From the IMG/VR virus record IMGVR_UViG_3300029060_000343: 64,000 nt of DNA; one strand, 5' to 3'. The notes under the pieces were generated by a model that worked only from the letters and a program-made list of their open reading frames with translations, did no database searches and was not told the origin of the DNA. Within the stretch, counting starts at the first letter, position 1; each line of letters begins with the position of its first letter. The position numbers and the translations under genes are program-made. This DNA comes from a virus. This document shows positions 31,154-55,092 of the stretch, piece after piece.

Positions 31154-32764
31154 CTATTCAGTTACTTCCGTATAATCTTTCAACGTTTCCGATGTTTCTA
31201 CGGGATCCTTTTTCTCTGTTGTTTCTCTGTTATTTTTCTTCTGCAGTGCTCCTGTAAGCAGTGATGTCGGATCAATACCAGTAGATTCTTTGATACCATC
31301 AGAAACCTGCGTTACGGTAGTCATAATATCACCCGCAAGCTGGCTGGTATTTCCACCAAACATCTTTATGGAATCTACGTTCGTATATCCCTTAGCCACA
31401 GCCTCTGCGATCTTAGGCAGCTGCTCGAAGTATACCTTCAAAGTATCCAGTTCCATCTGCTGTTTTGCAGCGTCACCATACTGTTTCATAGCTTCCGCCT
31501 TCTTTAAGATACCGGCTGCCTCTGCCTCTGCCTTTGCCTGAATTGCTTCTGCTTCTGCCTTACCTTTTGCTGCTACGGCTGCTGCCTCGGCAAGACCTGC
31601 TGCCTTAACTGCCTCTGCTGCCTGTTCCTTAGCGAATCTCTCTGCCTCGGACTTTGCTTTCTCAGCTTCTGCCTGTCTCTGGATCTCGAAGAGTTCTGCC
31701 TCTGCTCTCTTCTGTCTCTCATACTGCTCAGCATCTGCCTTCTGCTGTGCTGCGTATTTATTCGCTTCTGCAGTCTTCTTGACCTCAGCTTCCAGAGCTT
31801 TCTCCTTGATGGATACTTCTCTCTCCTTTAATTCCAGTTCCTTCTCCTGACGGGCCAGGTTCGCGTTCGCTGTAGTGATCTCCACGGTCTTACGCTGTTC
31901 CTCTTCTTGAATCTTATATGCTGCATCTGCCTCAGCCTTCTTAATATCAGACTCTTTCTTCAGTTCTGCTTTCTTAATAGCCAGTTCGGTCTGCTTCTGT
32001 GCAATCTCAGTATCCGCAATGACCTGTGCATCATTGGCATCCTTCTGTGCCTGTGCTCTTGCAATCGCCACATCTCTGTCTGCCTGTGCCTTTGCAACGG
32101 AAGCATCCTTCTGAATCTGAGACATGTTATCCTGTCCCAAAGCAGTGATCAGGTTGTTCTCATCCTCAATCTTCTGGATATTACAGGACTCGATCCAGAT
32201 ACCCAGGGCATTCATATCCTTCTGTGCCTTTGCCTGTACCTCGTCACCGAAGGTCTTACGGTCATTACACAGTTCCTTTAAACACTGGGTACCGATAATC
32301 TCACGCATATTACCCTGTAAGGAATCGGTCAGCGCATCGCGAATTCCCTGTTCTTTCATATTCAGGAAGTTCTTCATAGCAGCCTGTGCCATTTCATGAG
32401 TAACTCTCTTATTGGAATCTGCCCCGGGAAGTAACTGCCCATTTTTATCAATGGTAACATCCTTTTCTGTAAGGACTCTTACTTTTGCCACCGCATCGAT
32501 ATCTACACCAATGAAATCCTTAGTCGGAATATATCCATTTGTCTTAATGTCGATACTGATCTGCTTTAACATCAATTCATCCTTCTTTTCCAAGAAAGGA
32601 ATCTTAATACCTGCACGACCGATTAATACCTTCGGCTCCTTTTTGAGACCGGAAATAATGTATGCCTTATCGGGAGACGCTTTTACATACCCGGACATCA
32701 AAATTCCAATCATCGCTACCGCAATAACTACTGCTATAATAACTCCTACACTAACACCACTCAT
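31154..32764 (-). CDS. flotillin-like SPFH/band-7 protein
   Basis: N-terminal TM segment; SPFH core followed by a long Ala/Glu/Lys-rich coiled coil (EA repeats); start at the ATG after the AAAGGAGAAAA RBS. Confidence 0.7.
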   Translation of the reverse strand: MSGVSVGVIIAVVIAVAMIGILMSGYVKASPDKAYIISGLKKEPKVLIGRAGIKIPFLEKKDELMLKQISIDIKTNGYIPTKDFIGVDIDAVAKVRVLTEKDVTIDKNGQLLPGADSNKRVTHEMAQAAMKNFLNMKEQGIRDALTDSLQGNMREIIGTQCLKELCNDRKTFGDEVQAKAQKDMNALGIWIESCNIQKIEDENNLITALGQDNMSQIQKDASVAKAQADRDVAIARAQAQKDANDAQVIADTEIAQKQTELAIKKAELKKESDIKKAEADAAYKIQEEEQRKTVEITTANANLARQEKELELKEREVSIKEKALEAEVKKTAEANKYAAQQKADAEQYERQKRAEAELFEIQRQAEAEKAKSEAERFAKEQAAEAVKAAGLAEAAAVAAKGKAEAEAIQAKAEAEAAGILKKAEAMKQYGDAAKQQMELDTLKVYFEQLPKIAEAVAKGYTNVDSIKMFGGNTSQLAGDIMTTVTQVSDGIKESTGIDPTSLLTGALQKKNNRETTEKKDPVETSETLKDYTEVTE

Positions 32765-32825
32765 TTTAAATTTTCTCCTTTTATGTATTTTTGTGCTTCT
32801 TTTAGAATTGCATTTTTGTTTTGAT

Positions 32826-33012
32826 TCCTGACCGCTCTGCACAGTCTAAAAACTGGCAGGTTCCAGGTACATGACAGCATCACTTGACAATTCCTGCAAC
32901 AGATCCGCTTTCTGACCGTAAAAATCAGAAACCAGATTTTTTTATGCAGAACAGTGTTTGTTATAGCTGCCGTACCTTAACTGGAATTTCGTCGCAAACA
33001 CTCCGATGATCG
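32826..33012. repeat. solo copy (~185 bp, ~85% identical) of the right end of the 58.7-60.5 kb IS element (MITE-like remnant or standalone omega-RNA locus)
   Basis: Direct alignment of 32832-33010 with 58748-58930 (CTCTGCACAGTCTAAA(A/G)ACTGGCAGGTTCC...TTTTTTATGCA(G/A)AACAGTGTTTGTTATAGCTGCCGTACCT...). Confidence 0.6.
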
Positions 33013-37082: not shown

Positions 37083-37916
37083 TTAATTTACATAAACATA
37101 CCACCAGCCGGTATGTTCGGTTTCTTCTCCATTTCTTTTATCTTCCTCAGGATCGTAATATCCGGTATTTACGGATATTTCTTCTCCCTGCGATCTGTAG
37201 AAGGCTTCAATGAGGTCGGCTACAACATTAGCTGTTTCTTCTGTTGCCACAAGAATCTGTCCGTCGTCATCGCACCAGATAGCGTCGCTTTCGTTTCCAG
37301 CAAGCATATCTGCAATGGCCACGATCCAGTTTGTTTTCGGCTTTTGAGGGAGGCTACCACTGTAATCCGCAGAAATAAATTCCTGTGCCTCTTCCGCCGT
37401 CATCAGATCCGCCATCATATTAATTTTACTGATATTACGTTTGCAGGTCTGAATAGCTTCTTTGCCGTTGCATTCTGACACTTTATTCCAGTCAGAACCG
37501 ATATCCCACTCCATATACTCTACTGATGATAACGGCGTATCGCTTTCCGAGGTAAGAAACGCATACTTAATGTTATCGGCATTATCGATATCGATCAGTA
37601 ATCTTCCATCGTTATTATCCTGACAATAGAACAGAACATCGTTAAGAGAATCCTCTGGGCAATATAATTCCTGATACTCTTTCAAAATATCGCTGCTGAT
37701 CACGCAGTCGCCCATATCGAAATTCGTATCGAGAATTCTTGGAATTTTTTCAGCGCAAGCTGAAATATATTTATTATTTTCTTTCAACCATTCCATTGTA
37801 TGCCTTGCTCGACTGATCATGCGCTCTCCGTAATTCCAGCCATAATATCTTGCCACCAATTTGCGGGTTCCGTCTGTTTCCTGATAGCGTACAAAAATCT
37901 GCGATCTCTGTCCCAT
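37083..37916 (-). CDS. hypothetical protein (start revised to MGQRSQIFVRY...)
   Basis: GGAGGAAAATATT-ATG RBS. Confidence 0.5.
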   Translation of the reverse strand: MGQRSQIFVRYQETDGTRKLVARYYGWNYGERMISRARHTMEWLKENNKYISACAEKIPRILDTNFDMGDCVISSDILKEYQELYCPEDSLNDVLFYCQDNNDGRLLIDIDNADNIKYAFLTSESDTPLSSVEYMEWDIGSDWNKVSECNGKEAIQTCKRNISKINMMADLMTAEEAQEFISADYSGSLPQKPKTNWIVAIADMLAGNESDAIWCDDDGQILVATEETANVVADLIEAFYRSQGEEISVNTGYYDPEEDKRNGEETEHTGWWYVYVN

Positions 37917-37965
37917 AATATTTTCCTCCATTTATCTATTTTGATATATTTAATATGAAAGAAAA

Positions 37966-37992
37966 AGCCTTCCGGAAGTTATCCGGAAGGTT
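37966..37992 (-). terminator. intrinsic terminator
   Basis: AGCCTTCCGGAAGTTATCCGGAAGGTT hairpin. Confidence 0.55.
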
Positions 37993-38015
37993 TGGAATAT
38001 TATTATAAATATTAA

Positions 38016-38106
38016 CGCCGTGGCGGGGAGTCGAACCCCGAAACCGGATTTTACTCCGAGATGGTGGATTAGCAATCCACTGCTGTACCATTTGAGCCAC
38101 CACGGC
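38016..38106 (-). tRNA. tRNA-Ser(GCU), class II
   Basis: Cloverleaf by eye: T-arm GGGGUUCGACUCCCC; anticodon loop UUGCUAA; long variable arm. Confidence 0.7.
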
Positions 38107-38119
38107 AAGAAATATAAAC

Positions 38120-38190
38120 GGCCCATTGCGGATTCGAACCGCAGTCCCTGGGGTCAAGGCCCAGTGCATTGACCGCTATGCTAATGGGCT
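38120..38190 (-). tRNA. tRNA-Gln(UUG) (anticodon loop CCUUGAC, atypical C33)
   Basis: T-arm GCGGUUCGAAUCCGC; anticodon stem CUGGG/CCCAG. Confidence 0.5.
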
Positions 38191-38197
38191 AAAAAAC

Positions 38198-38287
38198 GCC
38201 AGTGACAGGACTCGAACCTGTACGTCGACATAAATGCCGGCTTGCCTGTGTTCGAAGCAGGTGCTGTACCACTTGAGCCACACTGGC
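38198..38287 (-). tRNA. tRNA-Ser(CGA), class II
   Basis: T-arm CAGGUUCGAGUCCUG; loop UUCGAAC; long variable arm. Confidence 0.65.
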
Positions 38288-38289
38288 AG

Positions 38290-38380
38290 ACTCCCGTGCC
38301 CCGCAGATTGGCAGGTTTATCACGAATACCGCAGCCGTTAGTCAATTTCGACTGAAATACCGTTTAGCACGGGCTTTTTG
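38290..38380 (-). other. ~90-nt tRNA-sized structured element without canonical T-loop (tRNA pseudogene or unknown small RNA)
   Basis: Terminal complementarity GCCCGUG...CACGGG enclosing internal hairpins; no GTTCGAATC-type T-loop. Confidence 0.3.
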
Positions 38381-38437
38381 CATATACACTGAATAGAAAC
38401 AGGTGACTAATCTGCTTCGCACAGCTTAAATGCAAAG

Positions 38438-38511
38438 ACATCGGTGGGATTCGAACCCACGATAAAACCTGTTTTGCAGACAGGCGCCTTAGACCACTCG
38501 ACCACGATGCC
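38438..38511 (-). tRNA. tRNA-Cys(GCA)
   Basis: T-arm GUGGGUUCGAAUCCCAC; anticodon loop CUGCAAA. Confidence 0.7.
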
Positions 38512-38518
38512 ATAATAC

Positions 38519-38592
38519 TACGGACAGCGGGACTCGAACCCGCAAAGTACGATTTAGAAGACCGTTGTTTTATCCAATTAGACTATGCCCGT
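38519..38592 (-). tRNA. tRNA-Arg(UCU)
   Basis: T-arm GCGGGUUCGAGUCCCGC; anticodon loop CUUCUAA. Confidence 0.7.
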
Positions 38593-38598
38593 ATAAAA

Positions 38599-38671
38599 TA
38601 TCCCCAGGCAGATTTGAACTGCCGTTCCCTGCGTGAGAGGCAGATGTCCTTGACCGCTAGACTATGGGGAC
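38599..38671 (-). tRNA. tRNA-Glu(CUC)
   Basis: 5' GUCCCC Glu-like acceptor; T-arm GGCAGUUCAAAUCUGCC; loop CUCUCAC. Confidence 0.65.
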
Positions 38672-38675
38672 TTAA

Positions 38676-38767
38676 CGCTGTGACAGGGATTCGAACCCTG
38701 AAAGCGGGAATCTCACCCGACATGCCGGATTTCAAGGCCGGTGCTGTACCAGTTGAGCCATCACAGC
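38676..38767 (-). tRNA. tRNA-Ser(UGA), class II
   Basis: T-arm CAGGGUUCGAAUCCCUG; loop CUUGAAA; long variable arm. Confidence 0.65.
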
Positions 38768-38772
38768 AAAAG

Positions 38773-38863
38773 CGGAACGGGAGGGACTTGAACCCTCAAA
38801 GCGTGGATTGACACGACATGTCCGGCTTCCAACCGGGTCCTGTACCAATTGAGGCACCGCTCC
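38773..38863 (-). tRNA. tRNA-Ser(GGA), class II
   Basis: T-arm GAGGGUUCAAGUCCCUC; loop UUGGAAG; long variable arm. Confidence 0.6.
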
Positions 38864-38891
38864 ATATCAGGCTCTTTAACAAGAGCCTTTA

Positions 38892-39413
38892 TCATTTTGA
38901 AATTTTATCAGCAATTCCGGATGCAACATAAGACTCCGGCTTAACCTTTGCCTCAAAACCCATTGAAGTGACCCAGCCTATGAGCTCAGGAATCAATTCC
39001 TTCGTCTTACCATGTTCAGAATAACCAGCATCAATATGAATAGAAAACTCTGTGTTCAAAAATACGTCTTCATATTCCGTTGTCTCAAATATTGTAATAA
39101 GCTGTTCTGCTATTTCAAGTGAATCGCCGGTTTCCACACGAAGTTTTGTTCTTACATCTGAAATACGGTCACGTGCGTTAATCTTATAAAAGAAAATACC
39201 GCCGTGTCCTTCACAGATCACAGCAATTACACTTACTTCTTTCGTATAATCAAAATTCTGCGAATCCGTACCGATCGTAATATGAATACCGGTACCATAC
39301 TCTTTCATTCTTTCATAGTAAGCCTTTATATATTTTGGAATTTCCTGTATCATAAGCTCACCGTGTGATGGCGAAATCCAGTTTTCACTGTAATGTTTCT
39401 TACTCATGATCAC
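38892..39413 (-). CDS. hypothetical protein embedded in the tRNA array (possible RNase-H-like/DUF458-type fold)
   Basis: ORF track; TIGTDSQ segment; flanked by tRNAs on both sides. Confidence 0.45.
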   Translation of the reverse strand: MIMSKKHYSENWISPSHGELMIQEIPKYIKAYYERMKEYGTGIHITIGTDSQNFDYTKEVSVIAVICEGHGGIFFYKINARDRISDVRTKLRVETGDSLEIAEQLITIFETTEYEDVFLNTEFSIHIDAGYSEHGKTKELIPELIGWVTSMGFEAKVKPESYVASGIADKISK

Positions 39414-39437
39414 GTTGCTCCTTTCTGATATTTTTTA

Positions 39438-39513
39438 GCAGGCGCGGAGGGATTCGAACCCCCAGACAATCACGGTTTTGGAGACCGTTGCTGTACCAGT
39501 TGAGCCACGCACC
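39438..39513 (-). tRNA. tRNA-Trp(CCA)
   Basis: T-arm GGGGGUUCGAAUCCCUC; loop CUCCAAA. Confidence 0.7.
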
Positions 39514-39755
39514 CATAATAATGAACAATAAAAAACAGCCTCTTTTGATAAACTTTTTATCAGAAGATGCTGCAGAGAATGCCGGTAATTTTGTTATGCG
39601 AAAATTTTTGCATCAACAAATAAAGCAGTACATCTTCTTATCATGTCTACTCTCTGACCACGAACTATTGGATTGTCTGCTACATCTGTTTACGTTATGC
39701 ATAATTATTTACTCCTTCCTGCAATTTTTCTGTATCTGCATAAAAACTGGAAAAA

Positions 39756-39829
39756 TACGCCAAATCGGATTCGAACCGATACTAACAGGGGCTTAAACCC
39801 TGTGCCTCTGCCGATTGGGCTATTGGCGC
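39756..39829 (-). tRNA. tRNA with anticodon UAA (Leu codon UUA), class I length with Leu-type D-arm
   Basis: Loop UUUAAGC (G37); 3-bp D-stem with long D-loop; 5-nt variable region. Confidence 0.55.
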
Positions 39830-39833
39830 ATAA

Positions 39834-39906
39834 TGGGTATGACAGGCCATGATCCTGCAACCTTCGGCTTAAGAGGCCGATACTCTGCCACTTGAGTTAC
39901 ATACCC
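39834..39906 (-). tRNA. tRNA-Lys(CUU), noncanonical T-loop
   Basis: Perfect acceptor GGGUAUG/CAUACCC; loop CUCUUAA; T-loop AUCAUGG. Confidence 0.6.
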
Positions 39907-39928
39907 GTGGATACACATGCGGTATCAG

Positions 39929-40012
39929 TGCACCCGACGAGACTCGAACTCGCATGGAAAGTAATTCCGCCAGATTAAAAGTCTGGTGCCATACCAATTA
40001 GGCGACGGATGC
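39929..40012 (-). tRNA. class-II-shaped tRNA with anticodon UUU (Lys codon AAA)
   Basis: Loop CUUUUAA; extra arm GGAAUUACUUUCC; 3-bp D-stem. Confidence 0.5.
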
Positions 40013-40091
40013 ATACATTATAACTTTGATAATCGCTTGCATAACTGTTTTCGTTTCATGATTATTTCTCCTTTATTATAAAGATTTTCAA

Positions 40092-40163
40092 TCCCAAGGA
40101 CAGGATTTGAACCTGCGTTTGCCGGGTATGAACCGGCCGTACTCGCCGCTATACTACCCTGGA
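40092..40163 (-). tRNA. tRNA-Met(CAU), elongator or Ile2-type
   Basis: Loop UUCAUAC; T-arm GCAGGUUCAAAUCCUGU. Confidence 0.65.
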
Positions 40164-40164
40164 G

Positions 40165-40241
40165 TAGCGGGTCCAGGAGTCGAAGCCTGGTATCGCAAGG
40201 GTTATGAGCCCTGCATGGTAAATCCGTTCCACTCACCCGCA
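40165..40241 (-). tRNA. initiator tRNA-fMet(CAU)
   Basis: GGGCUCAUAACCC anticodon arm with three G-C pairs, identical to the bacterial initiator; 1:72 mismatch. Confidence 0.65.
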
Positions 40242-40243
40242 AA

Positions 40244-40316
40244 TGCTGATAACAGGACTCGAACCTGTAACCCCATGCTTGTAAGGCATATGCTCTCCCA
40301 GTTGAGCTACATCAGC
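40244..40316 (-). tRNA. tRNA-Val(UAC)
   Basis: Canonical cloverleaf; loop CUUACAA; T-arm CAGGUUCGAGUCCUG. Confidence 0.75.
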
Positions 40317-40320
40317 ATAG

Positions 40321-40391
40321 TTGTGGTGGACAGAGTCGGACTGTCGTTAACCGCTCATCAGACGGTCTTTCTACCATTGAAATACACCACA
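40321..40391 (-). tRNA. tRNA-Ile(GAU), noncanonical T-loop
   Basis: Loop CUGAUGA; T-loop UCCGACU. Confidence 0.55.
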
Positions 40392-40404
40392 ATATTTTTT
40401 ATGA

Positions 40405-40478
40405 AGCCTGTGACAAGATTTGAACTTGCAACCCTCTACTTACGAGATAGACGCTCTGCCAATTAGAGCTACACAGGC
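40405..40478 (-). tRNA. tRNA-Thr(CGU)
   Basis: Loop CUCGUAA; T-arm CAAGUUCAAAUCUUG. Confidence 0.7.
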
Positions 40479-40487
40479 ATTTTACAG

Positions 40488-40559
40488 TGCTCCCATGGCG
40501 ACTCGAACGCCAACTACAGAGTTCGTAGCCCTGCCGTCTATCCATTAGCGTATGAGAGC
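40488..40559 (-). tRNA. tRNA-Arg(ACG)
   Basis: Loop CUACGAA; T-arm GGCGUUCGAGUCGCC. Confidence 0.7.
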
Positions 40560-40563
40560 ATAG

Positions 40564-40634
40564 CAGGCGGTAACCGAATCGAACGGGTGTCTCACGGCTC
40601 AGAACCGCACGGTTTACCTCTAACCTAACCGCCT
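40564..40634 (-). tRNA. tRNA-Gln(CUG)
   Basis: Loop UUCUGAG; T-loop UUCGAUU. Confidence 0.6.
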
Positions 40635-40636
40635 AT

Positions 40637-40709
40637 AAGCCGCAGAAGGGACTCGAACCCTTAATCCCCTGATTACAAAGCAGGTGCATTACCATTGTGC
40701 TACAGCGGC
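40637..40709 (-). tRNA. tRNA-Thr(UGU)
   Basis: Loop UUUGUAA; T-arm AGGGUUCGAGUCCCU. Confidence 0.65.
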
Positions 40710-40723
40710 ATATTTAATTTCAG

Positions 40724-40807
40724 GGAGACCAGTGGGGCTCGAACCCACGTAGGAATTGCTTCCGCAGAGCCACAATCTGCTGCCTAACCAACTCGGCCAC
40801 AGCCTCC
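40724..40807 (-). tRNA. tRNA-His(GUG) with G-1:C73 and an unusual extra arm
   Basis: Loop UUGUGGC; 8-bp acceptor including G-1; extra arm GGAAGCAAUUCC. Confidence 0.5.
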
Positions 40808-40811
40808 ATAG

Positions 40812-40883
40812 CTGGAATGGCGGGACTTGAACCCACAACCTACCGGTTAACAGCCGGTCGCTCTACCATTGAGCTACAAACCA
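40812..40883 (-). tRNA. tRNA-Asn(GUU)-like copy with weakened acceptor stem (possible pseudo-tRNA)
   Basis: Body nearly identical to the tRNA-Asn at 41637..41709; two U·U mismatches in the acceptor. Confidence 0.4.
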
Positions 40884-40900
40884 ATACTATATTATCTAAA

Positions 40901-40974
40901 TGGGGCGAGTGAGAATCGAACTCACGACACACGGCTTATAAGGCCGCTGCTCTTGACCCCTGAGCTACCACCCC
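40901..40974 (-). tRNA. tRNA-Ile(UAU)
   Basis: Loop CUUAUAA; T-arm GUGAGUUCGAUUCUCAC. Confidence 0.6.
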
Positions 40975-41060
40975 TTATGAAATAAGGTTCGGTATAGATA
41001 TTCGTCTCATAGTCTTGTTTCTCCTTTATATTTGTTATACTCTTTCTACAGGAAAGAAAA

Positions 41061-41134
41061 TGTACCAGAAGGGATTCGAACCCATAGAAAACCGGATTTG
41101 AGCCGGCCCCGTCTGCCAGTTGCGGCACTGATGC
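41061..41134 (-). tRNA. tRNA with anticodon CAA (Leu codon UUG), class I length with Leu-type D-arm
   Basis: Loop CUCAAAU; D-arm CCGCAACUGGCAGACGG; short variable region. Confidence 0.5.
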
Positions 41135-41140
41135 ATACAG

Positions 41141-41213
41141 TCGGAATGACAGGTCTCGAACCTGCAGCCTCATGATCCCAAATCACGCGCGCTACCAATT
41201 GCGCCACATCCCG
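41141..41213 (-). tRNA. tRNA-Pro(UGG)
   Basis: 5' CGGGAUG; loop UUUGGGA; T-arm GCAGGUUCGAGACCUGU. Confidence 0.7.
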
Positions 41214-41219
41214 ATACAG

Positions 41220-41293
41220 TGCCCATGAGTGGTTTCGAACCACCAACCTCTGCCATCTGAAGACAGTTCGTCTGCCAATTGCGCCACATGGAC
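41220..41293 (-). tRNA. tRNA with anticodon CAG (Leu codon CUG), class I length
   Basis: Loop UUCAGAU; T-arm GGUGGUUCGAAACCACU; 5-nt variable region. Confidence 0.5.
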
Positions 41294-41300
41294 ATCACAG

Positions 41301-41378
41301 TACCTCGAATGGGAGTCGAACCCATAAACAATCACAGAGTCCTTAGCTCTGCCGCTTTGCCAATTTGCGTACCGAGGC
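41301..41378 (-). tRNA. tRNA with anticodon AAG (Leu codon CUU), short variable region
   Basis: Loop CUAAGGA; Leu-type D-arm CGCAAAUUGGCAAAGCG; T-arm UGGGUUCGACUCCCA. Confidence 0.5.
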
Positions 41379-41392
41379 ATATTTATTTTAAG

Positions 41393-41476
41393 TGGGCGAA
41401 GAAGGACTTGAACCTTCAGAAGCCGAAGCCAACTGTTTTACAGACAGTACCGCTGCCAATTACGGGATATTCGCCC
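41393..41476 (-). tRNA. tRNA-Tyr(GUA), class II
   Basis: Loop CUGUAAA; long variable arm; T-arm GAAGGUUCAAGUCCUUC. Confidence 0.7.
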
Positions 41477-41481
41477 AAAAG

Positions 41482-41569
41482 TCGGCAGGGTGAGAGTCGA
41501 ACTCACAATGTTTACCACGAGGGTCACAGTTTTACAGACTGCTTGCTTCAGCCTTTTGCATACCTGCCG
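41482..41569 (-). tRNA. tRNA-Tyr(GUA), second copy with divergent sequence, class II
   Basis: Loop CUGUAAA; perfect acceptor CGGCAGG/CCUGCCG; long variable arm. Confidence 0.65.
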
Positions 41570-41636
41570 TTAATAATATTCAGTTCCCATATAATAATAG
41601 TCTGGCATATCAGTCATCTCCTTTACATTTCTTAAG

Positions 41637-41709
41637 CTCTCACAGCAGGACTTGAACCTGCAACATCCCGGTTAACAGCCGGACGCTCTACCGATTGAGC
41701 TATGCGAGA
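41637..41709 (-). tRNA. tRNA-Asn(GUU)
   Basis: Loop CUGUUAA; T-arm GCAGGUUCAAGUCCUGC. Confidence 0.7.
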
Positions 41710-41713
41710 ATAG

Positions 41714-41786
41714 AGTGCGTGAACGGATTCGAACCGTCCCTTTCTGCTTGGAAGGCAGATGTGCTATCCGCTGACACTACACACAC
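41714..41786 (-). tRNA. tRNA-Gly(UCC)
   Basis: Loop CUUCCAA; T-arm GACGGUUCGAAUCCGUU. Confidence 0.65.
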
Positions 41787-41791
41787 ATAAG

Positions 41792-41867
41792 CGACTCCAA
41801 CGGGATTTGAACCCGTGTTATTCCTGCGTGACAGGCAGGTGCCATAAACCAGCTAGGCGATGGAGCC
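41792..41867 (-). tRNA. tRNA-Asp(GUC)
   Basis: Loop CUGUCAC; T-arm CACGGGUUCAAAUCCCGU. Confidence 0.65.
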
Positions 41868-41871
41868 ATAA

Positions 41872-41943
41872 TGCCTCGTTTCGGTTACGATCCGATCCTC
41901 TGGAGCTTCAATCCAGCGCTTCTACCAAGTTAGCTTACGAGGC
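41872..41943 (-). tRNA. tRNA-Phe(GAA), noncanonical T-loop
   Basis: Perfect acceptor GCCUCGU/ACGAGGC; loop UUGAAGC; T-loop AUCGUAA. Confidence 0.6.
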
Positions 41944-42050
41944 TCGGTAAAGTCAGTATCGTCTTTACCGCCATAAAATCGTTTATCCATATTTTTTCAA
42001 TGTCCTTTCGTATATTGTATAAATCCTGAGTGCCTGGTTCAGAATTTAAG

Positions 42051-42123
42051 AGCAGATGACGGAACTCGAATCCGCATTTCTGACTTGGCAAGCCAGTGTA
42101 TTAGCCAGCTATACGACATCTGC
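42051..42123 (-). tRNA. tRNA-Gly(GCC)
   Basis: Perfect acceptor GCAGAUG/CAUCUGC; loop UUGCCAA; T-arm GCGGAUUCGAGUUCCGU. Confidence 0.7.
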
Positions 42124-42190
42124 ATGTGGGACAAACGGAGTGCCTGGTTCCATAAGTCCCTGTTTTGTTGTATTACGGATATTTCCGTAG

Positions 42191-42263
42191 CGACCGATGC
42201 GGGATTCGAACCCACGTCTCGGGAGTGAAATTCCCGTGACCTCGTCCTCTAGTCGAATCGGCC
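42191..42263 (-). tRNA. tRNA-Glu(UUC)
   Basis: Perfect acceptor GGCCGAU/AUCGGUC; loop AUUUCAC; T-arm GUGGGUUCGAAUCCCGC. Confidence 0.65.
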
Positions 42264-42270
42264 AAATCAA

Positions 42271-42347
42271 TGGAGCATATGAGAATCGAACCCATCTGTT
42301 TTTCCTGTTTGCAAAACAGGCGACCACCCCTTGCAGTCCCATACCCC
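42271..42347 (-). tRNA. tRNA-Ala(UGC) with G3:U70
   Basis: 5' GGGGUAU with G3·U70 wobble; loop UUUGCAA; T-arm AUGGGUUCGAUUCUCAU. Confidence 0.6.
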
Positions 42348-42416
42348 ATATAATTAAAAAGACCACTAAACTAAGACAATTTCTTAATCCAGTGGTCATG
42401 ATTTCATATTTCCAAT

Positions 42417-42677
42417 CTATGCGCGGTTCCTGTTCCACCGGGTGCCTGTTCCGATATCTGCTGACCGCTTGAAACGGCTATGAAAAGAACCACTGAATGA
42501 ATTATGTAATTGTCTGAGATACGCTATAATCGCTGAAAAAAGACTGCATTCCGGCTTACTATCGACAATAAGATCCCATCCATAATGATAATTAGAGCGC
42601 ACCAAACCAAGCCCTGTTTCCAGTGCGAATGACATCTGTGTGAACTGAGGTTTGTTTTTCATAATCATTGCTATCAT
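42417..42677 (-). CDS. hypothetical small protein between the sigma-A promoter and the tRNA array
   Basis: AAGGAAAAGAAAGACC-ATG RBS; may be a leader ORF of the tRNA operon. Confidence 0.3.
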   Translation of the reverse strand: MIAMIMKNKPQFTQMSFALETGLGLVRSNYHYGWDLIVDSKPECSLFSAIIAYLRQLHNSFSGSFHSRFKRSADIGTGTRWNRNRA

Positions 42678-42786
42678 GGTCTTTCTTTTCCTTTCTAAAA
42701 ATTTTTGCATAAAAATACGGAGTCCAACAGCTAATCTCAGATAGAAAATCTAAGACTCGCGGCAGGCACTCCGTTCATCTACTGAT

Positions 42787-42815
42787 ACTATAACACCTAC
42801 CGGAAGTATTGTCAA
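42787..42815 (-). promoter_or_regulatory. canonical sigma-A-type promoter (TTGACA-N17-TATAGT) upstream of the tRNA array
   Basis: Reverse complement of 42810-42815 is TTGACA; 17-nt spacer; reverse complement of 42787-42792 is TATAGT. Confidence 0.55.
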
Positions 42816-54039: not shown

Positions 54040-55092
54040 CTAATTAATAACTTTATGGACAACAGCTGCCTGACATTCCGTTCCCGATACATATACCGGT
54101 GGAATCCAGTGCAGGATCAGTTTTCTTTCACCGTTCCTCGATCCGGTCCAGTAATGATGCCAGTGTGCCCTCCTTGTGTGTGCCGGTAAAGAACGTTTTA
54201 CACAAATGTTCAGTTCGGATGTTTGCCCTTTACAATTATCTGAAGATTTCTTTTGTTTCTTCTGCGAACGAATTTCTGATCCGTACCGATAACCACATTC
54301 CCATTGACGGATTTCAGAAAACCTATTTTTGATACGTCCACTGGGATGATATGTATTTTTCGTAACTGAAGATTCCTGTATCTCTGCATTGTCTGCGCAC
54401 AGATATAATAAAGCATTCAACATATAGAAACAGAATTCCGTCCAATCCACGTTTCGGTCTGATTCGTCGCATGAAAAATCATTTTTGTCGAAAATGAAAA
54501 TTCCATCTTCATTATCGTTTGGAACCAGTGCGGCTTTGCCAAACATAACCCTGCCATCTTCCTTTACGCGTTCCGTGTACAAAAGATATCCATTTTCTTT
54601 CCTGATTATATTTATGAATGCTCCGTGGAAATTTTTCCGGAAAATGCCATCCTCAGAAAATTCCAGATAAAATGTCTGATACGGCAGCCGGTCCAGTATT
54701 CTTACAGGTAATTTGATTTCTTCCGAATCTGCCAAAGCAAGCTCAAGTTCCGAATCAAACTTATATACCTGTTTATTTGCGGCCCATTTATTCGGCATTA
54801 GATACGAAGAAAATAATTCTGCGGCTAACGCTCTGTCTTCTTCTGGATCTTCTGGTATCTCGCCATTTCCAGTCATCATTTTGTACATTTGAGAACGGCC
54901 TGATAATAAAATATCATTGATGTATTTGAATTTTCCGTTATAAGACGGATTCATGAAATCAGTGTCGTACCAGATAAACAAAAGGACATCGTCGATATTT
55001 AAAAGTGTCTGTTTGATCGCCCTGGTCCATTTATTATTATAAGGATGACTGTTTAAATCCATTATTTTTGCAAAATATAATGGTGTATACAT
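54040..55092 (-). CDS. hypothetical protein (350 aa)
   Basis: ORF track. Confidence 0.5.
   Translation of the reverse strand: MYTPLYFAKIMDLNSHPYNNKWTRAIKQTLLNIDDVLLFIWYDTDFMNPSYNGKFKYINDILLSGRSQMYKMMTGNGEIPEDPEEDRALAAELFSSYLMPNKWAANKQVYKFDSELELALADSEEIKLPVRILDRLPYQTFYLEFSEDGIFRKNFHGAFINIIRKENGYLLYTERVKEDGRVMFGKAALVPNDNEDGIFIFDKNDFSCDESDRNVDWTEFCFYMLNALLYLCADNAEIQESSVTKNTYHPSGRIKNRFSEIRQWECGYRYGSEIRSQKKQKKSSDNCKGQTSELNICVKRSLPAHTRRAHWHHYWTGSRNGERKLILHWIPPVYVSGTECQAAVVHKVIN

What the first reader, a model, noticed from the sequence alone, without database searches (positions are those of the whole stretch)
38016..42347. Array of 36 tRNA genes apparently covering all 20 amino acids plus initiator tRNA
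- By manual cloverleaf reading the array encodes: Ser x4 (GCU, CGA, UGA, GGA), Gln x2, Cys, Arg x2, Glu x2, Trp, four Leu-anticodon tRNAs, Lys x2, Met, fMet, Val, Ile x2 (GAU and the rare UAU), Thr x2, His, Asn x2, Pro, Tyr x2, Gly x2, Asp, Phe and Ala.
- All are on the minus strand with short spacers, none has an encoded CCA, and the array is driven by a sigma-A promoter.
- A complete, compact tRNA complement inside an otherwise MGE-like region is a hallmark of jumbo phages and megaphages.
- In Clostridia, long tRNA arrays also occur chromosomally, so the context needs checking.
Basis: seen in the sequence. Interest (0 to 1): 0.7.

Follow-up and report, generated by a model that had tools for sequence, protein, structure and literature searches.

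The report
Self-sensing tRNA gene array in phage
A large phage-like element from the human gut carries 35-36 tRNA genes for all 20 amino acids, split into blocks that each follow a tiny reading frame spelling out the codons read by that block's tRNAs, which looks like a built-in sensor that switches tRNA production on when those tRNAs run short.

Summary
ARAGORN and Rfam both find 35 tRNA genes at 38015-42348 (minus strand).

The context is a gut mobile element, probably a large phage of Lachnospiraceae. There are no housekeeping genes in 84 kb, but no capsid or terminase gene was seen either.

The main new result concerns the long spacers. Five of the eight carry a tiny ORF with a strong ribosome-binding site, and its codons match the anticodons of the tRNA block that follows. 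One example is MKRKQLCKRLSKL before Lys-UUU, Lys-CUU and Leu-UAA. Another is a 29-codon ORF that contains codons for all nine tRNAs downstream.

The leaders co-vary with block content in diverged relatives. Unrelated "menu" leaders occur in other arrays, for example QQQMQCRRRMCQQRCRQM before Cys, Gln, Arg and Met tRNAs. The last leader sits in a trp-type terminator/antiterminator.

Inferred mechanism: ribosome stalling senses a shortage of charged tRNA and induces the matching block. Eight literature searches found no prior description.

Other oddities: four Leu tRNAs lack the long variable arm, His and Lys-UUU have one, and an RNase H-fold gene sits inside the array.

The parts
42787..42815 (-). 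Consensus sigma-70/sigma-A-type promoter (TTGACA-17-TATAGT with TG extension), the best candidate start of the array operon
   Evidence: 11 of 12 matches. Promoter-like sites as a class are not enriched in the region: 9 found versus 9.4 expected.
42417..42677 (-). 86-aa ORF between the promoter and the first tRNA. It is conserved in relatives and has no family match.
   Evidence: genes of 79-86 aa at the same place in L001, L002, L023; no NCBIfam family
42361..42397 (-). Terminator-like hairpin plus T-run immediately before the first tRNA (Ala). Its role was not tested.
38015..42348 (-). tRNA array: 35 confident tRNA genes (Ala ... Ser-GCU), 20 amino acids, no encoded CCA
40164..40241 (-). 36th, sub-threshold initiator-like tRNA(CAU): U1xU72 mismatch, GGG/CCC anticodon stem, 8-nt T loop
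41922..41990 (-). Leader ORF A, MDKRFYGGKDDTDFTEPRKLTW. It precedes Phe, Asp, Gly-UCC and Asn and runs 22 nt into tRNA-Phe. The codon match is weak on its own.
   Evidence: 6/21, P=0.2. Conserved in L023 as MDKRFCGGKDDTDFTEPC.
41570..41608 (-). Leader ORF B, MPDYYYMGTEYY. Its stop codon abuts tRNA-Tyr. The block is Tyr, Tyr, Leu-AAG, Leu-CAG, Pro, Leu-CAA.
   Evidence: 5 Tyr of 11 codons, P=1e-4 for the first tRNA. Orthologues are MEDYYYNHINDY (L027) and MEAGYYYMVDY (L025); similar leaders occur in L103 and L109.
40975..41010 (-). Leader ORF C, MRRISIPNLIS (ATA x2, ATT, AAC, CGA). Its stop abuts tRNA-Ile(UAU). The block runs from Ile-UAU to Met.
   Evidence: L021 has MNKRIRILNLVL before Ile-UAU.
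40018..40059 (-). Leader ORF D, MKRKQLCKRLSKL (AAA x2, AAG x2, TTA x3), 5 nt before Lys-UUU. The block is Lys-UUU, Lys-CUU, Leu-UAA.
   Evidence: 7/12, P=1e-4, 3/3 anticodons. MKRK leaders occur in L023, L025, L027, L032-L034, L036, L100, L103, L108, L109 and L120.
39613..39702 (-). Leader ORF E, MHNVNRCSRQSNSSWSESRHDKKMYCFIC. It contains codons for all 9 tRNAs of the last block: Trp, Ser-GGA, Ser-UGA, Glu-CUC, Arg-UCU, Cys, Ser-CGA, Gln-UUG, Ser-GCU.
   Evidence: 15/28 codons, P=6e-6; 9/9 anticodons represented, chance about 2e-4
39624..39645 (-). Segment 2 of attenuator E, inside the 3' part of leader E. It can pair with the 5' half of the terminator (antiterminator, -15.6 kcal/mol).
   Evidence: The same alternative pairing, made from different sequence, is present in L023, L027 and L025.
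39526..39573 (-). Intrinsic terminator of attenuator E (hairpin -14.7 kcal/mol plus U-run), ending about 12 nt before tRNA-Trp
38892..39407 (-). 171-aa RNase H-fold protein (PF04308, DUF458/YkuK-like) inside block E, between tRNA-Trp and tRNA-Ser-GGA
38289..38435 (-). 147-nt spacer without an ORF, a candidate small structured RNA conserved in L028
   Evidence: no Rfam hit; 6 compensatory pairs, two sequences only
42016..42162 (-). Two copies of a hairpin with the conserved 9-nt loop ACCAGGCAC, in the Glu->Gly-GCC and Gly-GCC->Phe spacers. A third copy lies at about 42428-42464 inside the 86-aa ORF.
   Evidence: Copies in L023, L025 and L027 have covarying stems.
37968..37990 (-). Intrinsic terminator closing the array operon

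Best explanation
The locus is a genuine operon of 35 tRNA genes, plus one marginal initiator-like gene. It lies on a large mobile element from the human gut, most likely a big virulent phage of Lachnospiraceae.

The tRNAs cover all 20 amino acids. They lack an encoded CCA, so they must be matured by RNase P, RNase Z and a CCA-adding enzyme.

The array is not a plain string of genes. Short ORFs with strong Shine-Dalgarno sites cut it into blocks, and the codons of each ORF are the ones read by the tRNAs of the block that follows.

Proposed mechanism:
- A ribosome translating a leader stalls when the charged tRNAs for that block are scarce. Scarcity could come from codon-usage mismatch, host shut-off, or host anticodon nucleases.
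- For the last block (leader E), stalling frees the 3' part of the leader to pair with the 5' half of a downstream terminator. Transcription then reads through into Trp, the RNase H-like gene and eight more tRNAs.
- If the leader is translated smoothly to its stop codon, the terminator forms. This is classical trp/his-type attenuation, applied to tRNA genes and reading a multi-codon 'menu'.
- Leaders A-D have no terminator. Their stop codons sit within a few nucleotides of the 5' end of the next tRNA. I infer a translation-coupled effect on folding, RNase P processing or stability of that tRNA, but the mechanism is open.

What is shown: the tRNAs, the ORFs, the codon-to-block correspondence, its conservation and co-variation, and the terminator and alternative pairing.

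What is inferred: that ribosomes translate the leaders, that stalling raises tRNA output, and that the element is a phage.
For: tRNA genes.

Codon-to-block matching in the window:
- Leader D: 7/12 codons, P=1e-4, 3/3 anticodons.
- Leader E: 15/28 codons, P=6e-6, 9/9 anticodons. The chance of 9/9 is about 2e-4.
- Leader B: 5 Tyr of 11 codons before two tRNA-Tyr, P=1e-4.
- The true leader-block assignment scores 39 matches, the maximum of all 120 permutations (mean 15.8).

The true assignment is also the maximum in L023, L027 and L025. L027, L025, L021 and L028 share no megablast-level DNA similarity with the window; L023 is about 85% identical over part of the array.

Co-variation between leader and block:
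- L025's last block begins with two Phe tRNAs, and its leader has gained two TTT codons.
- L027 lacks leader C, and its Tyr leader has gained AAC, CAC, ATA and AAT for the merged Asn/His/Ile-UAU block.
- L027's last block lacks Ser-GGA, and its leader lacks TCC.
- The window and L023 swap the positions of TCC and TCG but keep both.

Independent 'menu' leaders with other amino-acid sets:
- L071: QQQMQCRRRMCQQRCRQM before Cys, Cys, Gln, Arg, Arg, Met, Arg, Gln (19/40, P=2e-8).
- L071: FDEHIEHFDDHFICDERI before Asp, His, Asp, Ile, Phe, Glu, Glu.
- L098: FEQFQSEKQEKQFCKEQKC before Gln, Glu, Glu, Lys, Lys, Gln, Phe, Cys.
- L100: WQISCSSQRNHQISRW before Ser, His, Ser, Ile, Gln, Cys, Arg, Gln, Arg.

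An unsupervised scan of bacterial-binned arrays gave 11 hits at P<0.005 among 49 ORFs tested, against 0.25 expected.

Attenuator anatomy:
- A terminator hairpin plus U-run lies directly before the block in the window, L023, L027, L025, L100, L098 and L071.
- Leader-3'-part x terminator-5'-half duplexes are -15.6 to -20.4 kcal/mol in four lineages, built from different sequences.
- L100 gives -14.1 and L098 gives -20.8, against shuffled controls of -9.1+-2.3 and -12.9+-2.2.
- The minimum-free-energy fold without a ribosome shows a 1:2 hairpin plus the 3:4 terminator.

No T-box or other Rfam element was found in the region.

Phage context.
Against: No expression, ribosome-profiling or termination data exist. 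Everything functional is inferred from sequence.

Leaders A and C are not individually significant (P=0.2 and 0.12).

Leaders A-D have no terminator, so a second, unproven mechanism has to be assumed for them.

In unconstrained folding the terminator of E is always the most stable structure. The antiterminator matters only kinetically, as in trp.

In L071 consensus promoters lie between the leader-terminator and the tRNA block, and one L071 leader shows no antiterminator pairing. There the leader can at most modulate read-through.

L023's leader keeps AGA codons although its Arg tRNA is CCU.

From my own knowledge, not checked here: leader-peptide attenuation needs transcription-translation coupling, which is weak in Bacillus subtilis. 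Whether coupling holds in Lachnospiraceae, or with a phage RNA polymerase, is unknown.

Phage identity is not proven. No structural genes were found in 84 kb, and the 687-aa marker also has homologues on megaplasmids.
Confidence: 0.6

Rival explanations
1. This is an ordinary, constitutively expressed phage tRNA array that compensates codon usage or replaces tRNAs cut by host defences. The mini-ORFs are incidental, or encode small peptides, and have no regulatory link to the tRNAs.
For: Large tRNA sets are common in big phages (established knowledge). The element's codon usage fits the set: ATA is 24% of Ile codons and a UAU tRNA is present, while CTA is 5% of Leu codons and no UAG tRNA is present. 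Leaders A and C are not individually significant. L071 blocks have their own consensus promoters.
Against: Chance does not explain three things. The codon-block match is the maximum of all permutations in four genomes. Leaders co-vary with block content. Unrelated menu leaders occur in L071, L098 and L100. Peptide-level selection would not preserve codon sets while permuting synonymous Ser codons. The terminator and antiterminator are conserved through sequence change.
Confidence: 0.15
2. The array belongs to a non-viral mobile element, either a megaplasmid or a chromosomal genomic island of a Lachnospiraceae bacterium. The tRNA module and its leaders work as described, but for the element or the cell rather than for a virus.
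For: No capsid, portal or terminase gene was found in 84 kb. The 687-aa ORF has homologues on Brevibacillus, Paenibacillus and Pseudomonas megaplasmids. Arrays of the same type, with the RNase H-like gene, V-arm-less Leu tRNAs and MKRK/YYY leaders, occur on contigs binned to Lachnospiraceae and Acetatifactor. One such contig is 892 kb, with non-phage flanking genes.
Against: Gene orientation is uniform and small hypothetical ORFs are dense over more than 84 kb. There are many PHROG matches. An ATPase is 48% identical to Herelleviridae phage proteins. Close architectural relatives are listed as viral genomes of 90-394 kb. One relative carries an RNA polymerase beta'-like gene. No match was found in the plasmid collection. 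The variants across samples are mosaic.
Confidence: 0.2
3. This is the housekeeping chromosomal tRNA operon of a Clostridia genome, the organism's main tRNA set.
For: Clostridia have long chromosomal tRNA operons. YkuK-like genes lie next to 10-30 tRNAs in many Ruminococcaceae and Lachnospiraceae genomes, including isolates.
Against: No ribosomal RNA, ribosomal protein or core metabolic gene occurs in 84 kb. Several tRNAs are non-canonical: V-arm-less Leu, V-arm His and Lys, a degenerate initiator, and mismatched acceptor stems. None of the 185,579 species-representative genomes holds a relative of the array's RNase H-like gene above 60% identity. The element varies mosaically between samples.
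Confidence: 0.03
4. The leaders act after transcription only. A ribosome stalled on the leader shields or stabilises the downstream precursor, or a ribosome reaching the stop codon blocks folding and RNase P cleavage of the adjacent tRNA. No transcription attenuation is involved.
For: In leaders A-D and their relatives the stop codon lies 22 nt inside to 5 nt before the tRNA 5' end, and there is no terminator. From my own knowledge, ribosome stalling is known to stabilise downstream RNA in Gram-positives, as with the erm leaders.
Against: Leader E and at least six other menu leaders are followed by strong intrinsic terminators, most with alternative pairing. That points to transcriptional control for those blocks. 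The two modes may coexist.
Confidence: 0.3

Closest known systems
Leader-peptide transcription attenuators of amino-acid operons (trpL, hisL, leuL, thrL, pheL, ilvL)
   Same: Both have a short SD-led ORF rich in diagnostic codons. Both have a four-segment RNA with a 1:2 hairpin, a 2:3 antiterminator and a 3:4 intrinsic terminator. In both, the stop codon is placed so that a terminating ribosome covers segment 2.
   Different: The regulated genes here are tRNA genes, not biosynthetic enzymes. The leader lists up to nine different codons, one for each downstream tRNA, instead of a run of one amino acid. Several attenuators and leaders are nested inside one operon. Leaders A-D lack a terminator and abut a tRNA 5' end.
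Cys-rich small ORFs in Mycobacterium tuberculosis that sense tRNA-Cys cleavage by the VapC4 toxin (Barth et al. 2021 PNAS, cited in PMC10264068; recalled from the title and my own knowledge)
   Same: Small ORFs enriched in one codon convert depletion of a specific tRNA into ribosome stalling and a change in downstream expression.
   Different: Those ORFs control stress-response genes of the cell. Here the output would be the depleted tRNAs themselves, on a mobile element, giving a closed feedback loop.
T-box riboswitches of Firmicutes
   Same: Both sense tRNA charging through a codon-like specifier and control a terminator/antiterminator upstream of translation-related genes.
   Different: T-boxes bind uncharged tRNA directly and need no ribosome. 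No T-box is detected here by Rfam. The elements here have an SD, ATG, in-frame codons and a stop.
tRNA arrays of large and huge phages (for example T5, KVP40, mycobacteriophage clusters, Lak and other huge phages) and tRNA arrays of Firmicutes genomes
   Same: Dozens of clustered, co-oriented tRNA genes on a mobile element. The proposed roles are codon supplementation and escape from tRNA-targeting defences (PMC10264068, PMC12409363).
   Different: I found no report of codon-matched leader ORFs or attenuators in such arrays. T5 has small ORFs between its tRNAs, and one of them (T5.072) has WEGWEGEIEWLYFY upstream of Tyr, Glu, Trp and Phe tRNAs. That is only a lead.
nev-tRNAs of nematodes: class II, Leu-derived tRNAs with non-Leu anticodons (PMC3333845)
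   Same: His-GUG and Lys-UUU here carry a long variable arm and a class II-like D arm although they are not Leu, Ser or Tyr.
   Different: The His tRNA has G-1 and C73, which are HisRS identity elements, so it is probably still a His acceptor. Charging was not tested. The converse oddity, four Leu tRNAs without the long arm, has no nev-tRNA counterpart.

Membership tests
tRNA genes (Rfam RF00005 / ARAGORN cloverleaf) | Cloverleaf scoring above the curated threshold | tested here: met
   35 genes by ARAGORN default. 31 reach the Rfam gathering score and 35 reach E<=1. The 36th (40164-40241) does not meet this feature: it is called only with ARAGORN -ps80 and has no Rfam hit.
Phage tRNA array (large or jumbo phage) | Located on a viral genome with virion and packaging genes | tested here: inconclusive
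   No capsid, portal or terminase gene among about 45 ORFs scanned in 84 kb. Phage-typical accessory genes and homologues are present. Relatives are in IMG/VR.
Phage tRNA array (large or jumbo phage) | Genome larger than 200 kb (jumbo) | tested here: inconclusive
   The window's own strain is on a 102.6-kb contig (100% identical). One sample block holds a contig of 0.2-1 Mb. Relatives are 208, 232, 250, 268 and 394 kb.
Leader-peptide transcription attenuator (trp/his type) | Short ORF with a ribosome-binding site upstream of the regulated genes | tested here: met
   Five ORFs of 11-29 codons with AAGGA(G) 9-12 nt before the ATG
Leader-peptide transcription attenuator (trp/his type) | Leader enriched in codons whose decoding reports on the product of the regulated genes | tested here: met
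   Significant for B, D, E and for the menu leaders of L071, L098 and L100. Not individually significant for A and C.
Leader-peptide transcription attenuator (trp/his type) | Intrinsic terminator between the leader and the regulated genes | tested here: met
   Met for leader E (39526-39573) and its counterparts in L023, L025, L027, L071, L098 and L100. Not met for leaders A-D.
Leader-peptide transcription attenuator (trp/his type) | Mutually exclusive antiterminator that involves the 3' part of the leader | tested here: met
   Duplexes of -15.6 to -20.4 kcal/mol in four lineages with different sequences. L100 and L098 are better than shuffled controls, and one L071 leader is not.
Leader-peptide transcription attenuator (trp/his type) | Read-through depends on ribosome stalling (coupled transcription-translation) | not testable with these tools
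   Needs term-seq, reporter assays or in vitro coupled assays
T-box riboswitch | Match to the T-box covariance model | tested here: not met
   No T-box hit in the window at the gathering score, or at E<=1 in 37700-42800
Bacterial class II tRNA-Leu | Long variable arm | tested here: not met
   The four Leu-anticodon tRNAs are 75-79 nt with 5-9-nt variable regions. Orthologues in L025 are 85-89 nt and do have the arm.
Bacterial class II tRNA-Leu | Discriminator A73 and a Leu-type D arm (LeuRS identity; PMC2377443) | tested here: met
   A73 in all four. They have a 3-bp D stem with the GG-containing loop CAAYYGGCAGA. No G3:U70 is present. Actual charging was not tested.
Bacterial initiator tRNA | Unpaired 1:72 and three consecutive G:C pairs at the base of the anticodon stem | tested here: met
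   U1xU72 and GGG/CCC at 40164-40241. The L025 homologue has C1xA72 but only two G:C pairs. The 8-nt T loop and the sub-threshold scores argue that it may be a decaying gene.
PF04308 (DUF458, YkuK-like RNase H-fold proteins) | Pfam model above the curated cut-off, and an RNase H-like fold | tested here: met

The most novel reading that the evidence does not exclude
tRNA arrays of gut phages and mobile elements carry a previously undescribed, modular control system. It uses 'menu' leader peptides whose codons enumerate the tRNAs of the following block. Some are coupled to terminator/antiterminator switches. Others have a stop codon placed exactly at a tRNA 5' end, which would be a possible new translation-coupled control of tRNA maturation. 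With this system the element would measure the charged pool of each tRNA and produce exactly the tRNAs that are missing, for instance after attack by host anticodon nucleases on tRNA-Lys or tRNA-Tyr. The same arrays also remodel tRNA class: Leu loses its long variable arm, and His, Lys and Ile gain one.
Probability: 0.55. Interest if true: 0.9.

Novelty: new variant of a known kind. Interest (0 to 1): 0.8.

Why it matters
Why phages carry tRNAs has been argued for decades. The two main ideas are codon compensation and replacement of tRNAs destroyed by host defences.

A sensor wired into the array that reads the availability of exactly the tRNAs it controls would mean the tRNAs are made on demand. 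That makes the question testable with simple reporter constructs: swap the leader codons, deplete one tRNA, and measure read-through.

It would also extend leader-peptide attenuation in two ways. The regulated genes would be tRNA genes, a new class. The logic would be multi-input, since one leader polls up to nine tRNAs.

The modules are short, portable and predictable from sequence, which makes them attractive as synthetic sensors of translational capacity.

The tRNAs that lost or gained a variable arm offer natural experiments on aminoacyl-tRNA synthetase recognition.

Tried and rejected
- Near-identical DNA in GenBank phages: none. Distant hits were only generic tRNA similarity.
- IMG/VR scans with the single 687-aa protein and the single RNase H-like protein found nothing. 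An alignment was needed to reach relatives.
- Exact look-ups failed for two window ORFs whose predicted starts were probably wrong.
- Plasmid collection: no DNA match.
- Walking beyond the window is limited to 10 kb per side. No hallmark phage gene was reached.
- 'The RNase H-like gene always marks tRNA arrays' was rejected. It holds for 10 of 10 viral relatives at >=49% identity. It holds for only 2 of 33 at <=46% and for about half of the bacterial loci.
- Terminators after leaders A-D: none found.
- Unconstrained and crudely constrained folding of leader E always keeps the terminator. The antiterminator shows up only when the transcript is folded before segment 4 exists, or as a duplex.
- The first automated leader scan on IMG/VR loci was noisy because it picked up many spurious ORFs far from tRNAs. 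Overall own-versus-other z was 0.66 against -0.03, P=0.03. Real cases stood out individually.
- Known leader-peptide families: no NCBIfam match.
- A motif search for the 147-nt spacer RNA found only one true relative, L028.
- T5 was checked as a model phage. The result is suggestive but not convincing.
- Literature: eight searches found no description of leader ORFs or attenuators in tRNA arrays. The library lacks most subscription journals, so prior work cannot be excluded.

Full report

ARAGORN at default settings reports 35 tRNA genes between 38015 and 42348, all on the minus strand. The Rfam tRNA model hits 31 of them at its gathering score and all 35 at E<=1.

Rfam does not hit it. It has two initiator hallmarks, an unpaired 1:72 position (U x U) and a GGG/CCC anticodon stem. 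Its T loop, however, has 8 nucleotides. Its orthologue is degraded in L027, and the homologue in L025 keeps a C1 x A72 mismatch. I treat it as a marginal, possibly decaying initiator-type gene.

None of the genes encodes CCA. The base after the discriminator region is almost always T.

Twenty-seven of the 35 gaps between genes are 0-21 nt. Eight are 66-574 nt.

A near-consensus promoter with a TG extension lies at 42815-42787. A strong terminator lies at 37990-37968, directly after the last tRNA. The promoter is about 440 nt upstream of the first tRNA, with a conserved 86-aa ORF and a terminator-like hairpin in between.

G+C rises to 45-48% over the array, against 33-44% around it.

By standard wobble rules (my inference from the anticodon list), the set reads all 20 amino acids and 52 of 61 sense codons. 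If U34 reads whole four-codon boxes, it reads every codon except CGG. The element's own codon usage fits this. ATA is 24% of Ile codons and a UAU tRNA is present. CTA is 5% of Leu codons and no UAG tRNA is present. All three stop codons are used.

**2. What carries the array?**

The window is 100% identical over the array to a 102.6-kb human-gut metagenome contig (ERZ918708). One of its proteins is on record in 136 sample blocks, on contigs from under 2 kb up to the 0.2-1 Mb class. The contigs show mosaic differences between samples.

The window plus 10 kb on each side (84 kb) consists almost entirely of small ORFs on one strand. Family matches include:
- DNA methyltransferase, a radical-SAM protein, DHH phosphoesterase, HD and Metallophos hydrolases, an SLT lysozyme-like domain and a PASTA domain;
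- flotillin, Bro-N, macro domains and an AcrVA2-like protein;
- guanylate kinase and anaerobic ribonucleotide reductase activase;
- two TnpB transposase-like genes.

There are no ribosomal RNA genes, ribosomal protein genes or core metabolic genes. No capsid, portal or terminase gene was found either.

Several results point to a phage:
- An AAA ATPase just outside the window is 48% identical to a protein of 150-kb Enterococcus Herelleviridae phages.
- A 524-aa ORF resembles proteins of SPbeta-like phages.
- A 687-aa ORF has homologues in 300-485-kb phages, although it also has homologues on megaplasmids.
- Relatives that share the array architecture lie on contigs of 208, 232 and 250 kb. One of these carries an RNA polymerase beta'-like gene.
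- Further relatives lie on IMG/VR viral contigs of up to 394 kb.

The closest bacterial homologues of the array's protein-coding gene are from Lachnospiraceae, at up to 60% identity. No species-representative genome holds a relative of that gene above 60% identity.

I conclude that this is a mobile element of gut Lachnospiraceae. It is most likely a large phage (about 0.75), with a megaplasmid or island as the alternative. The same type of array also occurs on contigs binned to bacterial genomes, one of them 892 kb with non-phage flanking genes. The module itself therefore moves between phage and cellular contexts.

**3. The array is built of blocks headed by codon-matched leader ORFs.**

Five of the eight long spacers contain a tiny ORF preceded by AAGGA(G) at 9-12 nt. 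In transcription order they are:

- A, MDKRFYGGKDDTDFTEPRKLTW, before Phe, Asp, Gly-UCC, Asn.
- B, MPDYYYMGTEYY, before Tyr, Tyr, Leu-AAG, Leu-CAG, Pro, Leu-CAA.
- C, MRRISIPNLIS (two ATA, one ATT), before Ile-UAU ... Ile-GAU ... Met.
- D, MKRKQLCKRLSKL (AAA x2, AAG x2, TTA x3), before Lys-UUU, Lys-CUU, Leu-UAA.
- E, MHNVNRCSRQSNSSWSESRHDKKMYCFIC, before Trp, a protein gene, then Ser-GGA, Ser-UGA, Glu-CUC, Arg-UCU, Cys, Ser-CGA, Gln-UUG, Ser-GCU.

In E the run TGT AGC AGA CAA TCC AAT AGT TCG TGG TCA GAG AGT AGA contains a codon for every one of the nine tRNAs of the block.

Measured against the element's codon usage, the matches are as follows:

| Leader | Codons cognate to the block | P | Anticodons represented |
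|---|---|---|---|
| A | 6/21 | 0.2 | 2/4 |
| B | 6/11 (5 Tyr of 11 for the first tRNA, P=1e-4) | 9e-4 | 2/5 |
| C | 5/10 | 0.12 | 4/10 |
| D | 7/12 | 1e-4 | 3/3 |
| E | 15/28 | 6e-6 | 9/9 (chance about 2e-4) |

A and C are not significant alone. Summed over the five leaders, the true pairing of leaders with blocks gives 39 matches. That is the maximum of all 120 permutations, whose mean is 15.8.

**4. The pattern is conserved, co-varies with block content, and recurs independently.**

Relatives were reached through the protein gene inside the array. L023 is about 85% identical in DNA over part of the array. L021, L025, L027 and L028 share no megablast-level similarity with it. In each of L023, L025 and L027 the true leader-block pairing is again the best permutation.

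Orthologous leaders keep the diagnostic codons while the rest of the sequence drifts:
- Tyr leaders: MEDYYYNHINDY (L027) and MEAGYYYMVDY (L025).
- Lys leaders: MKRKQKHKNKRLCMRR (L023), MKRKQKKTLISLASIV (L027) and MKRKQKRLLKVKTT (L025).
- Ile leader: MNKRIRILNLVL (L021).

The leaders also change when the blocks change:
- In L025 the last block starts with two Phe tRNAs, and its leader (..RNRWQSSCFSSFSSES..) has two TTT codons.
- In L027 there is no leader C, so the Tyr block runs on into Ile-UAU, Asn and His. Its Tyr leader has acquired AAC, CAC, ATA and AAT.
- L027's last block lacks Ser-GGA, and its leader lacks TCC.
- The window and L023 exchange the positions of TCC and TCG, both Ser codons, but keep both. 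This argues for selection on the codon set rather than on the peptide.

More distant arrays carry unrelated menu leaders:
- L071 (an IMG/VR contig of 268 kb): QQQMQCRRRMCQQRCRQM before Cys, Cys, Gln, Arg, Arg, Met, Arg, Gln (P=2e-8).
- L071: FDEHIEHFDDHFICDERI before Asp, His, Asp, Ile, Phe, Glu, Glu.
- L098: FEQFQSEKQEKQFCKEQKC before Gln, Glu, Glu, Lys, Lys, Gln, Phe, Cys.
- L100: WQISCSSQRNHQISRW before Ser, His, Ser, Ile, Gln, Cys, Arg, Gln, Arg.

An unsupervised scan of bacterial-binned arrays found 11 ORFs at P<0.005 among 49 tested, where 0.25 were expected.

**5. How it most likely works.**

Leader E has the full anatomy of a trp-type attenuator. Without a ribosome, the predicted fold pairs the codon-rich 5' part of the leader (segment 1) with its 3' part (segment 2). 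A terminator hairpin with a U-run (segments 3 and 4) ends about 12 nt before tRNA-Trp.

Segment 2 (GAUAAGAAGAUGUACUGC) can instead pair with segment 3 (GCAGCAUCUUCUGAUAAA) at -15.6 kcal/mol. The terminator itself is -14.7 kcal/mol. When the transcript is folded before segment 4 exists, the 2:3 helix forms.

The same alternative pairing exists in L023 (-18.5), L027 (-20.4) and L025 (-16.8). In L025 it is built from different sequence (AGAUACGG with CCGUAUCU). L100 and L098 give -14.1 and -20.8, both better than shuffled controls.

The logic that follows from established attenuation models is:
- A ribosome stalled on the menu codons leaves segment 2 free. The antiterminator forms and the block is transcribed.
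- A ribosome that reaches the stop codon covers segment 2. The terminator forms.

This is an inference. No expression data exist, and the required transcription-translation coupling is unverified for this host.

Leaders A-D are different. No terminator follows them. Their stop codons lie from 22 nt inside to 5 nt before the next tRNA's 5' end. This placement is conserved in L021, L023, L025, L027, L032-L036, L100, L103, L109 and L120.

I infer a translation-coupled effect on the adjacent precursor. A terminating ribosome would occlude the acceptor and D arms of the next tRNA. A ribosome stalled 15-30 nt upstream would leave the tRNA free to fold and be cut by RNase P, or would shield it from decay. 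This step is speculative.

In L071 consensus promoters lie between the leader-terminator and the tRNA block, and one leader there lacks an antiterminator. In that element the leaders can at most modulate read-through.

**6. Other components and oddities.**

The gene is embedded in tRNA arrays in all six metagenomic relatives examined and in 10 of 10 IMG/VR relatives at >=49% identity. That holds for only 2 of 33 more distant viral homologues and for about half of the bacterial ones. A role in tRNA precursor processing is plausible but untested.

*The Leu tRNAs.* The four Leu-anticodon tRNAs are 75-79 nt and lack the long variable arm. They keep A73 and a Leu-type D arm, and they have no G3:U70. 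Their orthologues in L025 are 85-89 nt with normal arms, so the arm was lost within this lineage. Compensatory stem changes show the short forms are under selection.

LeuRS is the only synthetase expected to accept these tRNAs, because it ignores the anticodon. In Aquifex, however, the orientation of the arm matters for charging (PMC2377443). Charging therefore needs testing.

*The His and Lys-UUU tRNAs.* Conversely, His-GUG (84 nt, with G-1 and C73) and Lys-UUU (85 nt, A73) carry long variable arms. The His arm is kept with compensatory changes in three lineages (GGAA/UUCC, GGGA/UCCC, GAGG/CCUC) but is absent in L027 and L028. These tRNAs resemble the nematode nev-tRNAs in shape (PMC3333845).

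**7. Comparison with known systems, and novelty.**

The tRNA array as such is a new member of a well-known kind. The control layer works like leader-peptide attenuation, and leader E meets that family's sequence-level criteria. It differs in what is regulated (tRNA genes), in reading a multi-codon menu, in being repeated inside one operon, and in the terminator-less leaders that abut tRNA 5' ends.

It is not a T-box. The nearest conceptual analogue is the sensing of tRNA-Cys cleavage by Cys-rich small ORFs in M. tuberculosis, a reference cited in PMC10264068.

Eight full-text searches found no description of such leaders in tRNA arrays, and no NCBIfam family matches the peptides. The library is incomplete, so earlier work cannot be excluded.

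**8. Verdict.**

| Claim | Assessment |
|---|---|
| The codon-block correspondence is real | About 0.95 |
| The leaders are stalling sensors that raise tRNA output | About 0.6 |
| The element is a phage | About 0.75 |
| Interest | 0.8 |
| Novelty | New variant of a known kind |

Noticed in passing
window 39755-39830, 41060-41135, 41219-41293, 41300-41378 (-): All four Leu-anticodon tRNAs (UAA, CAA, CAG, AAG) are 75-79 nt and lack the long variable arm, but they keep A73 and a Leu-type D arm. Orthologues in L025 have normal arms (85-89 nt). The short form also occurs in L021, L023, L027 and L100. Leu-CAA has a C2xA71 mismatch. The AAG anticodon implies A34 (inosine?).
   Followed up: partly
window 40723-40806 (His-GUG) and 39928-40012 (Lys-UUU), (-): Two class I isotypes carry a long variable arm. 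The His arm is conserved with compensatory changes in L023 and L025 but is absent in L027 and L028. In L023 the arm is on Lys-CUU instead of Lys-UUU. Ile-UAU has an arm in L021 and L025 but not in the window. Lys-UUU on the bacterial-binned contig L029 has a similar arm (loop AUUAC).
   Followed up: partly
window 38892-39407 (-): An RNase H-fold PF04308/YkuK-like gene is embedded in the array and sits under attenuator E. The closest bacterial homologues are from Lachnospiraceae (<=60% identity). In Pseudomonas phage Astolliot a homologue lies 1.2 kb upstream of a tRNA cluster. In the 735-kb uncultured phage LR756501 it lies 5 kb from two CUA-anticodon tRNAs.
   Followed up: partly
window ~42428-42464, ~42126-42162, ~42016-42052 (-); L023 4344, 4648, 4758; L025 2160, 2377; L027 4532: A hairpin with a conserved 9-nt loop A(A/C)CAGGCAC and covarying stems recurs on the sense strand at the 5' part of the arrays. 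Its function is unknown. It could be a protein-binding, antitermination or processing signal.
   Followed up: partly
window 38289-38435 (-); L028 ~8088-8245: A 147-nt ORF-free spacer between tRNA-Cys and tRNA-Ser-CGA is conserved in L028 with 6 compensatory pairs. It has no Rfam match. It is a candidate new small RNA inside block E.
   Followed up: partly
window 58976-60442 (-) and 10267-11400 (-): Two TnpB/IS605-OrfB (Cas12f-like) genes are present. The first interrupts a Metallophos phosphoesterase gene that is intact (238 aa) in other samples (L011, L012, L014).
   Followed up: no
L025 12156-12504 (-) and 8088-9125 (+): A 250-kb relative carries a tmRNA gene (tag ANAFVRPVAVAA) and a tyrosine integrase next to its 38-tRNA array. 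The 96-nt 'gap' after its Lys leader is an unusual Lys-UUU tRNA that ARAGORN misses.
   Followed up: no
L030 (phage T5, NC_005859 27000-45000): T5 has small ORFs between its tRNA genes. T5.072 contains WEGWEGEIEWLYFY and lies upstream of the Tyr, Glu, Trp and Phe tRNAs. T5.065 is richest in K and V and precedes Lys and Val. T5.070 has 5 Cys and precedes tRNA-Cys, though it may be a zinc ribbon. This is a possible hint that codon-matched ORFs exist in a model phage.
   Followed up: partly
L100 (Acetatifactor MAG, 892-kb contig, 429520-441999); L029/L081 (Lachnospiraceae MAG GCA_024687125.1): Arrays of 15-26 tRNAs with the same RNase H-like gene, V-arm-less Leu tRNAs and MKRK or menu leaders sit in bacterial-binned contigs. 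Their flanks are island-like (LytTR, GDSL lipase, NT5C, AAA_21; HTH genes). The module is apparently mobile between phages and chromosomes.
   Followed up: partly
window 42361-42397 and 42417-42677 (-): A conserved 86-aa ORF followed by a terminator-like hairpin lies between the promoter and the first tRNA. It could be another attenuator, but no codon match was evident.
   Followed up: no
window 54040-55092 (-), 31154-32842 (-), 60727-62412 (-): The cargo is of the accessory or counter-defence type: an AcrVA2-like protein, a flotillin/SPFH protein, and a 561-aa protein with a methyl-accepting-chemotaxis signalling-type coiled coil.
   Followed up: no
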